Of a stretch of 64,000 nucleotides of DNA, positions 59,529 through 59,722 are shown one piece after another (position 1 is the stretch's first letter; the number at the start of each line of letters is the position of its first letter). The position numbers and the translations under genes are program-made. Source of the DNA: Escherichia coli (GTDB taxonomy: Bacteria; Pseudomonadota; Gammaproteobacteria; Enterobacterales; Enterobacteriaceae); the NCBI RefSeq assembly GCF_013122565.1, contig NZ_CP053258.1, one strand, 5' to 3'. The notes beneath the pieces were generated by a model. That model was not told the DNA's origin. It saw only the letters and a list, made by a program, of their open reading frames with translations, and made no database searches.

Positions 59529-59557
59529 TTGACGAAAAGCTGAAAACCACTAGAATG
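59529..59557 (+). promoter_or_regulatory. Sigma-70 promoter of the tRNA-Leu gene (stringent-type)
   Basis: TTGACG (-35), 16-bp spacer, TAGAAT (-10), followed by a GC-rich discriminator GCGCCTCC. Confidence 0.55.
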
Positions 59558-59597
59558 CGCCTCCGTGGTAGCAATTCTTTTTAAGAATTGATGGTAT

Positions 59598-59684
59598 GCG
59601 AAGGTGGCGGAATTGGTAGACGCGCTAGCTTCAGGTGTTAGTGTCCTTACGGACGTGGGGGTTCAAGTCCCCCCCCTCGCACCA
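59598..59684 (+). tRNA. leuV: tRNA-Leu (anticodon CAG)
   Basis: GCGAAGGTGGCGGAATTGGTAGACGCGCTAGCTTCAGGTGTTAGTGTCCTTACGGACGTGGGGGTTCAAGTCCCCCCCCTCGCACCA: 87 nt with long variable arm, CAG anticodon and encoded CCA. Only one copy is present. Confidence 0.93.
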
Positions 59685-59722
59685 ATTATCTTTACTTCCT
59701 TTCTTGTTTCTTCCTTGATTTT

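What the first reader, a model, noticed from the sequence alone, without database searches (positions are those of the whole stretch)
59529..59722. Single tRNA-Leu(CAG) gene where K-12 has the three-gene leuQPV tandem array
Flanking distances to rsmC and yjjZ match K-12 as I recall it, but only one 87-nt tRNA-Leu(CAG) follows the stringent-type promoter, and about 236 bp corresponding to two further tRNA copies are absent. This is either a genuine copy-number reduction by homologous recombination between identical tRNA repeats, which would lower gene dosage for the most used Leu codon CUG, or a collapse of tandem repeats in assembly.
Basis: partly seen in the sequence, partly recalled or inferred. 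Interest (0 to 1): 0.4.

Follow-up and report, generated by a model that had tools for sequence, protein, structure and literature searches.

The report
Common one-copy leucine tRNA locus
This stretch carries one leucine tRNA gene where the E. coli laboratory strain has three in a row, but the same one-copy version occurs in about 8% of finished E. coli genomes, including the O157:H7 reference strain, so it is an ordinary natural variant.

Summary
One 87-nt tRNA-Leu(CAG) gene (59598-59684, +) is the only tRNA in the window. It follows a strong promoter (TTGACG, 16 bp, TAGAAT, GC-rich discriminator) and lies between rsmC and yjjZ/fhuF.

Compared with K-12 leuQ-28 bp-leuP-34 bp-leuV, exactly 236 bp are missing (87+28+87+34). 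The remaining gene equals leuQ and leuV and lacks the leuP-specific T. Leader and trailer match K-12. One detail is wrong: the rsmC-tRNA gap is 300 bp, not K-12's 267 bp.

Three copies are ancestral: 43 of 46 informative Enterobacteriaceae species representatives have them. The window therefore carries a derived repeat-to-repeat deletion.

It is not rare. Spacer searches over 5,425 complete E. coli genomes give 4,963 with three or more copies, about 36 with two, and about 426 (7.9%) with one. The one-copy group includes O157:H7 Sakai. One-copy alleles sit on at least six flank haplotypes, two nearly identical to three-copy strains, so the deletion recurs.

Assembly collapse cannot be excluded without reads, but it is unlikely (about 0.08). 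This is an already known allele of low interest. Its likely effect is lower tRNA-Leu(CAG) gene dosage.

The parts
58266..59297 (+). rsmC (16S rRNA m2G1207 methyltransferase), the upstream neighbour
   Evidence: 343-aa ORF. It is colinear with annotated rsmC in K-12 and other strains. It differs from K-12 at 18 positions, 17 of them third codon positions.
59298..59528 (.). rsmC-promoter intergenic region rich in REP/BIME elements; length varies between strains
   Evidence: Rfam naRNA4 (REP-derived) hit at 59376-59458 (-), 70.7 bits. The rsmC-stop-to-tRNA distance is 300 bp here, against 267 in K-12, 189 in O157:H7, 199 in TUM2330 and 308 in AVS0750.
59529..59556 (+). Operon promoter: -35 TTGACG, 16-bp spacer, -10 TAGAAT; a GC-rich discriminator GCGCCTCC follows
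   Evidence: Promoter scan, 10 of 12 matches. The region from the -35 to the tRNA start is identical to K-12. The 20-mer spanning the -10 and discriminator is exactly conserved in 54 Enterobacteriaceae species representatives.
59557..59597 (+). Discriminator and 5' leader, removed by RNase P
   Evidence: Identical to the K-12 leader. RNase P processing of this operon is reported in PMC2190699. The transcription start was not mapped here.
59598..59684 (+). Single tRNA-Leu(CAG) gene: a leuQ/leuV-type sequence with an intact 8-C run and encoded CCA. The deletion junction lies somewhere inside it and cannot be placed.
   Evidence: ARAGORN and Rfam RF00005. It is 100% identical to K-12 leuQ and leuV and differs from leuP at the C/T site in the variable arm.
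59685..59722 (+). C/U-rich, unstructured 3' trailer (the leuV trailer), presumed Rho-dependent termination zone
   Evidence: Identical to K-12 downstream of leuV. No intrinsic terminator on the + strand and little predicted structure in the first ~60 nt. PMC2190699 presumes Rho-dependent termination because it saw no intrinsic terminator there, and shows trimming of the trailer by PNPase and RNase II.
59723..59959 (-). yjjZ (DUF1435), convergent downstream neighbour
   Evidence: ORF. It matches the position and length of annotated yjjZ.
60100..60888 (+). fhuF (siderophore-iron reductase)
   Evidence: 262-aa ORF, annotated in syntenic loci. Pfam FhuF is recorded for the identical protein.

Best explanation
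This is the leuQPV locus in its naturally occurring one-copy form. The ancestral array was leuQ-28 bp-leuP-34 bp-leuV. It lost 236 bp, namely leuP, both spacers and one repeat unit, through mispairing of the identical 87-bp leuQ and leuV repeats. The route was unequal sister-chromosome exchange or replication slippage (inferred). What remains is one intact tRNA-Leu(CAG) gene behind the unchanged operon promoter and leader, followed by the unchanged leuV trailer. The gene should be transcribed and processed as in K-12: RNase P at the 5' end, exonucleases at the 3' end. The locus supplies one gene's worth of tRNA-Leu(CAG) instead of three. The genome total probably falls from four to two unless another copy was gained elsewhere. 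The structure, the ancestral state and the frequency of the allele are shown here. The recombination route, the expression and the dosage or fitness effect are inferred.
For: - **Structure.** There is one tRNA, and exactly 236 bp are absent relative to K-12. Leader and trailer are identical to K-12. The surviving gene is the C type shared by leuQ and leuV, not the leuP T type. The spacers are absent from the whole window.
- **Ancestral state.** 43 of 46 informative Enterobacteriaceae species representatives have three tandem copies. They include E. albertii, Salmonella enterica subsp. arizonae, Citrobacter, Klebsiella, Raoultella and Kluyvera. The C-T-C variant pattern is kept in E. albertii.
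- **Frequency.** Among 5,425 complete E. coli genomes, 4,963 have spacer1-tRNA-spacer2, 4,977 have spacer 1 and 4,985 have spacer 2. That leaves about 426 with neither spacer. In an even sample of 59 chromosomes, 5 showed the 207-bp one-copy span.
- **Reference genome.** O157:H7 Sakai has a single tRNA-Leu between rsmC and yjjZ, annotated leuQ.
- **Recurrence.** One-copy alleles lie on at least six different flank haplotypes. GPT21-004 (1 copy) has flanks identical to strain 10153 (3 copies). AVS0750 (1 copy) is 0.0009 from L062 (3 copies). Both kinds of two-copy intermediate exist, keeping spacer 1 or spacer 2.
- **Viability.** A complete leuVPQ deletion strain of K-12 was built and studied. 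Across that paper's tRNA gene deletions, loss costs growth in rich media and can help in poor media (PMC9981150).
Against: No reads are available, so collapse of the tandem array in this particular assembly is not excluded. No close relative of the window was found to show the state independently. The best DNA identity was 97.9% over 24 kb to complete genomes. It was at most 98.7% among loci that encode the same RsmC or FhuF protein, and all of those have three copies apart from one uncertain two-or-three-copy count. The rest of the genome is unseen, so the total tRNA-Leu(CAG) count and the dosage effect are unknown. O157:H7 shows that part of the loss can be offset by a duplicated leuT.
Confidence: 0.88

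Rival explanations
1. Assembly collapse: the isolate really has three (or two) tandem copies and the assembler merged them into one.
For: The repeats are 87 bp and nearly identical. Short-read assemblers do have trouble here: several draft contigs end inside or at the array (L006, L041, L048, L051, L021; L084, L085). One draft (L063) shows an implausible array with overlapping copies. All the closest sequences found by exact-protein look-up have three copies, apart from one uncertain two-or-three-copy count.
Against: The trouble seen in drafts is contig breakage or a garbled array, not a clean skip. A collapse would have to discard two unique spacers and the leuP T variant. The window crosses the locus cleanly within a 64-kb contiguous sequence. 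The identical one-copy structure is present in about 426 complete genomes, including O157:H7 Sakai.
Confidence: 0.08
2. The one-copy state is ancestral and the three-copy arrays of K-12 and others arose by amplification.
For: The E. whittamii species representative also has one copy.
Against: Three copies with homologous spacers occur in 43 of 46 informative species representatives across many genera. The middle-copy T variant is shared by E. coli, E. albertii and other Escherichia. One-copy E. coli alleles are scattered on haplotypes whose nearest neighbours have three copies.
Confidence: 0.01
3. The deletion is genuine but did not arise in this lineage. The one-copy allele was imported by short-patch homologous recombination from another one-copy E. 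coli.
For: E. coli core genes recombine often. The leader, tRNA and trailer are invariant, so an imported patch would leave no trace. The window shares the 300-bp REP arrangement with several other one-copy strains: GPT21-004, C311, ETEC1746 and PapRG-04-4.
Against: The same 300-bp arrangement also occurs with three copies (strain 10153). The window's flanks are at least 1.3% from every sampled one-copy allele. Deletion between close 87-bp direct repeats is expected to be frequent enough to recur, as the identical-flank pairs show.
Confidence: 0.1

Closest known systems
E. coli K-12 leuQPV operon (b4370-b4368; the promoter is called the leuV promoter in older literature)
   Same: Same chromosomal position (rsmC | array | yjjZ-fhuF). 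Promoter, leader and trailer are identical, and the tRNA sequence equals leuQ and leuV.
   Different: One gene instead of three. leuP (T variant) and both spacers are absent. The upstream REP region is 33 bp longer.
E. coli O157:H7 str. Sakai single tRNA-Leu(CAG), annotated leuQ, ECs_R0127
   Same: The same one-copy architecture between rsmC and yjjZ in a reference genome. The same holds for the other O157:H7 strains sampled.
   Different: A different haplotype: 189 bp between rsmC and the tRNA against 300 bp here, and a flank distance of 1.7%. The sampled O157:H7 Sakai relatives also carry a duplicated leuT in the argX-hisR-leuT-proM operon. Whether the window's genome does is unknown.
Engineered leuVPQ deletion of E. 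coli MG1655 (Raval et al. 2023, PMC9981150)
   Same: A reduction of tRNA-Leu(CAG) gene dosage at the same locus. It gives the experimental expectation for the phenotype.
   Different: The engineered strain removes all three genes and leaves only leuT. The natural allele keeps one.
Deletion between close direct repeats by slipped misalignment or unequal sister exchange (general knowledge of E. coli tandem-repeat instability; not tested here)
   Same: The loss runs exactly repeat to repeat and leaves one repeat. Both possible one-step intermediates (two-copy alleles) occur in nature.
   Different: The pathway (RecA-dependent or not) cannot be read from the sequence.

Membership tests
tRNA-Leu(CAG) gene (leuQ/leuV allele) | Cloverleaf with CAG anticodon and long variable arm | tested here: met
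   ARAGORN reports tRNA-Leu with anticodon CAG. Rfam RF00005 scores 48.5 bits against a gathering score of 29.
tRNA-Leu(CAG) gene (leuQ/leuV allele) | Sequence identical to K-12 leuQ/leuV, with encoded CCA and an intact 8-C run | tested here: met
   87 of 87 bases identical to the first and third K-12 genes. The C variant and the 8-C run are present.
leuQPV operon locus | Position between rsmC and yjjZ/fhuF, behind the conserved operon promoter | tested here: met
   Synteny. Promoter and leader are identical to K-12.
leuQPV operon locus | Three tandem tRNA-Leu(CAG) genes separated by spacers of 28 and 34 bp | tested here: not met
   One gene only. Both spacers are absent from the window.
Natural one-copy allele of the locus (as in O157:H7 Sakai) | leuQ leader + one tRNA + leuV trailer, 38 bp to yjjZ | tested here: met
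   Same layout as L002 and L070-L075 and as the Sakai reference L087.
Natural one-copy allele of the locus (as in O157:H7 Sakai) | Shared descent with a known one-copy lineage (same flank haplotype) | tested here: not met
   The nearest flanks are 1.3% away and belong to a three-copy locus. Distance to O157:H7 is 1.7%.
Assembly artefact (collapsed tandem repeat) | Excess read depth, or reads containing the missing spacers | not testable with these tools
   No reads or assembly metadata are available for the window.
Stringently controlled stable-RNA promoter | Near-consensus hexamers with a GC-rich discriminator; response to ppGpp and growth rate | tested here: inconclusive
   The sequence features are present. 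Regulation was not tested and rests on prior knowledge of this promoter.

The most novel reading that the evidence does not exclude
The repeated loss of two of the three genes could be an adaptive lowering of tRNA-Leu(CAG) dosage in lineages that seldom grow at maximal rate, rather than neutral repeat decay. The loss is seen in about 426 complete genomes on at least six haplotypes, in this window, and in the E. whittamii representative. O157:H7 has partly regained dosage through a leuT duplication. That would make this locus a natural experiment on the cost of tRNA gene redundancy.
Probability: 0.2. Interest if true: 0.35.

Novelty: already known. Interest (0 to 1): 0.12.

Why it matters
For this window it matters little: the locus is an ordinary allele and the tRNA gene is intact. 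More broadly, the array is a small dosage polymorphism in the gene for E. coli's most abundant tRNA. It recurs, and it can be scored from sequence alone. About 92% of genomes and nearly all related genera keep three copies even though deletion is easy, which argues for selection on dosage. The roughly 8% with one copy, and the leuT duplication in O157:H7, could be used to test ideas about the costs and benefits of tRNA redundancy. For annotation pipelines, the practical point is that a single leuQ-like gene here should not be flagged as an error.

Tried and rejected
- **First count attempt.** Counting one-copy genomes from coverage of the 1,101-bp window query (506 records at 80% or more) was abandoned. 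The tool sometimes joins pieces across multi-copy arrays. Spacer-specific queries replaced it.
- **Close relatives.** Exact-protein look-ups of the window's RsmC and FhuF were meant to see whether sister strains share the one-copy state. RsmC is a very common allele. All returned loci were at most 98.7% identical in DNA, and all had three copies apart from one uncertain two-or-three-copy count. The test was therefore uninformative.
- **Source organism.** The window is about 2% from every complete E. coli genome, 93% identical to E. whittamii, 95% to Escherichia sp. MOD1-EC7003 and 91% to E. albertii. Artificial mutation was rejected because differences sit at third codon positions. Shigella seems unlikely: no IS-sized insertion appeared where the window was compared with E. 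coli, though 1-2977 and 25351-27000 were not fully checked. The lineage remains unnamed.
- **Literature.** Withers et al. 2006 (RNA 12:933), which I recall as surveying tRNA gene gain and loss in E. coli and Shigella, is not held. No claim is taken from it.
- **Ancestral single copy.** Rejected on outgroups.
- **Intrinsic terminator.** None was found after the tRNA.

Full report
**What is there.** ARAGORN finds a single tRNA in the whole 64-kb window: tRNA-Leu(CAG) at 59598-59684 on the + strand. Rfam's tRNA model confirms it. A near-consensus sigma-70 promoter lies 41 bp upstream: TTGACG from 59529, a 16-bp spacer, TAGAAT ending at 59556. The GC-rich GCGCCTCC follows it. rsmC ends at 59297. 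yjjZ (-) starts 38 bp after the tRNA, at 59723, and fhuF starts at 60100 (annotation transferred). The finding's coordinates therefore run from the -35 hexamer to the last base before yjjZ.

**Comparison with K-12.** The K-12 locus holds three 87-nt genes separated by 28 and 34 bp. In the RefSeq record the promoter-proximal gene is leuQ, the middle one leuP, and the one next to yjjZ leuV. leuQ and leuV are identical in sequence, and leuP differs by one C-to-T change in the variable arm.
- The window's gene is identical to leuQ and leuV.
- Its leader equals the leuQ leader, and the 52 bases downstream equal the leuV trailer.
- Neither spacer is present anywhere in the window.
The rsmC-to-tRNA distance is 300 bp here against 267 bp in K-12, because the REP-rich intergenic region differs.

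**Which state is ancestral.** A 20-mer spanning the -10 and discriminator was scanned through one genome per bacterial species and returned 54 Enterobacteriaceae loci. Of these, 46 hold enough downstream sequence to judge.
- 43 have three tandem tRNA-Leu(CAG) genes. They include E. albertii, Salmonella enterica subsp. arizonae, Citrobacter, Klebsiella, Raoultella and Kluyvera.
- Two have two copies: K. pneumoniae ATCC 13883 and a Pluralibacter MAG.
- One, E. whittamii, has one copy.
- The C-T-C pattern of the three copies is shared by E. coli, E. albertii and other Escherichia.

The one-copy state is therefore derived.

**How common it is.** Spacer-specific searches covered 5,425 complete RefSeq E. 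coli genomes.

| Query | Genomes matching |
|---|---|
| spacer1-tRNA-spacer2 (three or more copies) | 4,963 |
| spacer 1 | 4,977 |
| spacer 2 | 4,985 |

By subtraction, about 14 genomes are two-copy alleles keeping spacer 1, about 22 are two-copy alleles keeping spacer 2, and about 426 (7.9%) have neither spacer. The subtraction assumes the three sets are nested. It agrees with an even sample of the ranking for the full K-12 array, where 54 chromosomes were three-copy and 5 showed the 207-bp one-copy span. Every one-copy example I fetched has the same layout as the window. O157:H7 Sakai, a reference genome, has a single gene here, annotated leuQ. Many sampled one-copy genomes belong to O157:H7.

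**Recurrence.** I aligned rsmC plus yjjZ-fhuF flanks (2.2 kb) from 27 loci.
- One-copy alleles fall on at least six haplotypes.
- GPT21-004 (one copy) has flanks identical to strain 10153 (three copies).
- AVS0750 (one copy) differs by 0.0009 from a three-copy locus.
- Both expected one-step intermediates exist: XH993 keeps spacer 1, while O111:H2 12A and Z1323CEC0018 keep spacer 2.

This is the pattern expected from repeated unequal exchange or slippage between 87-bp direct repeats. That mechanism is inferred from the structure and from general knowledge of tandem-repeat instability. It was not tested here.

**Genuine or collapsed?** Without reads the question cannot be closed for this assembly. 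Drafts do stumble at the array, but they do so by ending contigs in it (L006, L041, L048, L051, L021, L084, L085) or by producing a garbled array (L063). They do not neatly skip two unique spacers and the leuP variant. Given also an allele frequency of about 8% in finished genomes, I put collapse at about 0.08.

I could not find a close relative to test the state independently. The window is about 2% from every complete E. coli genome. It is at most 98.7% identical in DNA to loci that share its exact RsmC or FhuF protein. The differences sit at third codon positions, so the divergence is natural.

**How it should work.**
- *Transcription and processing.* The promoter, leader and trailer are unchanged. 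The gene should be transcribed and matured as in K-12. RNase P cuts the 5' end. Termination downstream is presumed to be Rho-dependent, and PNPase and RNase II trim the trailer (PMC2190699). The trailer here has no intrinsic terminator and little predicted structure.
- *Dosage.* The consequence is dosage. Across E. coli the tRNA sequence occurs at a median of four places per genome.
- *One-copy strains.* Some one-copy strains, such as GPT21-004, have two places.
- *O157:H7.* O157:H7 has three. The O157:H7-like genomes sampled carry two leuT copies in argX-hisR-leuT-proM.
- *Window genome.* The window's genome total is unknown.
- *Expected phenotype.* A complete leuVPQ deletion strain of K-12 was built and studied. 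Across that paper's deletion strains, loss of tRNA gene copies slows growth in rich media and can be beneficial in poor media, and backup copies do not compensate (PMC9981150).
- *Other reports.* A preprint reports that indels in any one of the four genes raise colony expansion (10.1101/355404). The 8-C run in these genes is an indel hotspot in mismatch-repair-deficient strains (PMC8510543). That run is intact here.

**Verdict.** The feature is an already documented, recurrent allele of the leuQPV locus, and its interest is low.

Noticed in passing
H319 NZ_CP032789.1 5446275-5447351; H320 NZ_CP111101.1 3985856-3986932: O157:H7-like genomes carry two tRNA-Leu genes in the argX-hisR-leuT-proM operon (span 1,077 bp against 851 bp in K-12). 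They total three tRNA-Leu(CAG) genes despite the one-copy leuQPV locus. This looks like partial compensation.
   Followed up: partly
L074 1699-1784 (E. coli ETEC1746): The only gene at this locus is 86 nt, with a 7-C run instead of 8-C. It is either a homopolymer sequencing error or a damaged sole copy at the indel hotspot described in PMC8510543. L062 shows the same in its first copy.
   Followed up: no
L063 4332-4732 (GCA_949281885.1): An odd array: ARAGORN calls four tRNA-Leu genes, the first two overlapping by 4 bp with no spacer. A core-motif count gives five. It is probably a misassembly, possibly a real expansion. Some complete genomes hold up to 10 places matching this tRNA.
   Followed up: no
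L006, L041, L048, L051, L021; L084, L085: Draft contigs end inside or right at the tRNA array, so short-read assemblers tend to break here.
   Followed up: partly
window 27000-64000: The window is only 97.7-98.8% identical to the best of 5,426 complete E. coli genomes. Differences are concentrated at third codon positions. The source looks like a natural E. coli-group lineage without a close relative in the collections searched, and it was not identified.
   Followed up: partly
window 5523-9534 and 1-2977: Relative to K-12 there is a ~4-kb insertion between nhaA and the hokC/dnaJ region. It encodes a sulfatase, a Tsx-like channel and a 426-aa ORF with no Pfam hit. Beyond nhaR, where K-12 has IS1A and rpsT, the window has a fimbrial usher gene.
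   Followed up: partly
window 59376-59458 (-): Rfam naRNA4 (REP-derived nucleoid-associated RNA) hit at 70.7 bits in the rsmC-tRNA intergenic region. The length of this region varies between strains (189, 199, 267, 300 and 308 bp among annotated loci).
   Followed up: no
L032 7363-7449 (E. whittamii Sa2BVA5); L034 (K. pneumoniae ATCC 13883); L017 (Pluralibacter MAG): Reduced arrays also occur outside E. coli: one copy in the E. whittamii representative and two in the other two. These are drafts, so they are unverified.
   Followed up: no
L060 4559-4645: The third copy carries the leuP-type T variant, giving C-T-T instead of C-T-C. This suggests gene conversion within the array.
   Followed up: no
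PMC2190699, table of 3' flanks against L001/L004: The paper lists leuQ followed by CCAAACGAG and leuP by CCAAAAACC. In the MG1655 record the promoter-proximal leuQ is followed by AAAACC and leuP by AACGAG, so the two rows appear swapped.
   Followed up: no
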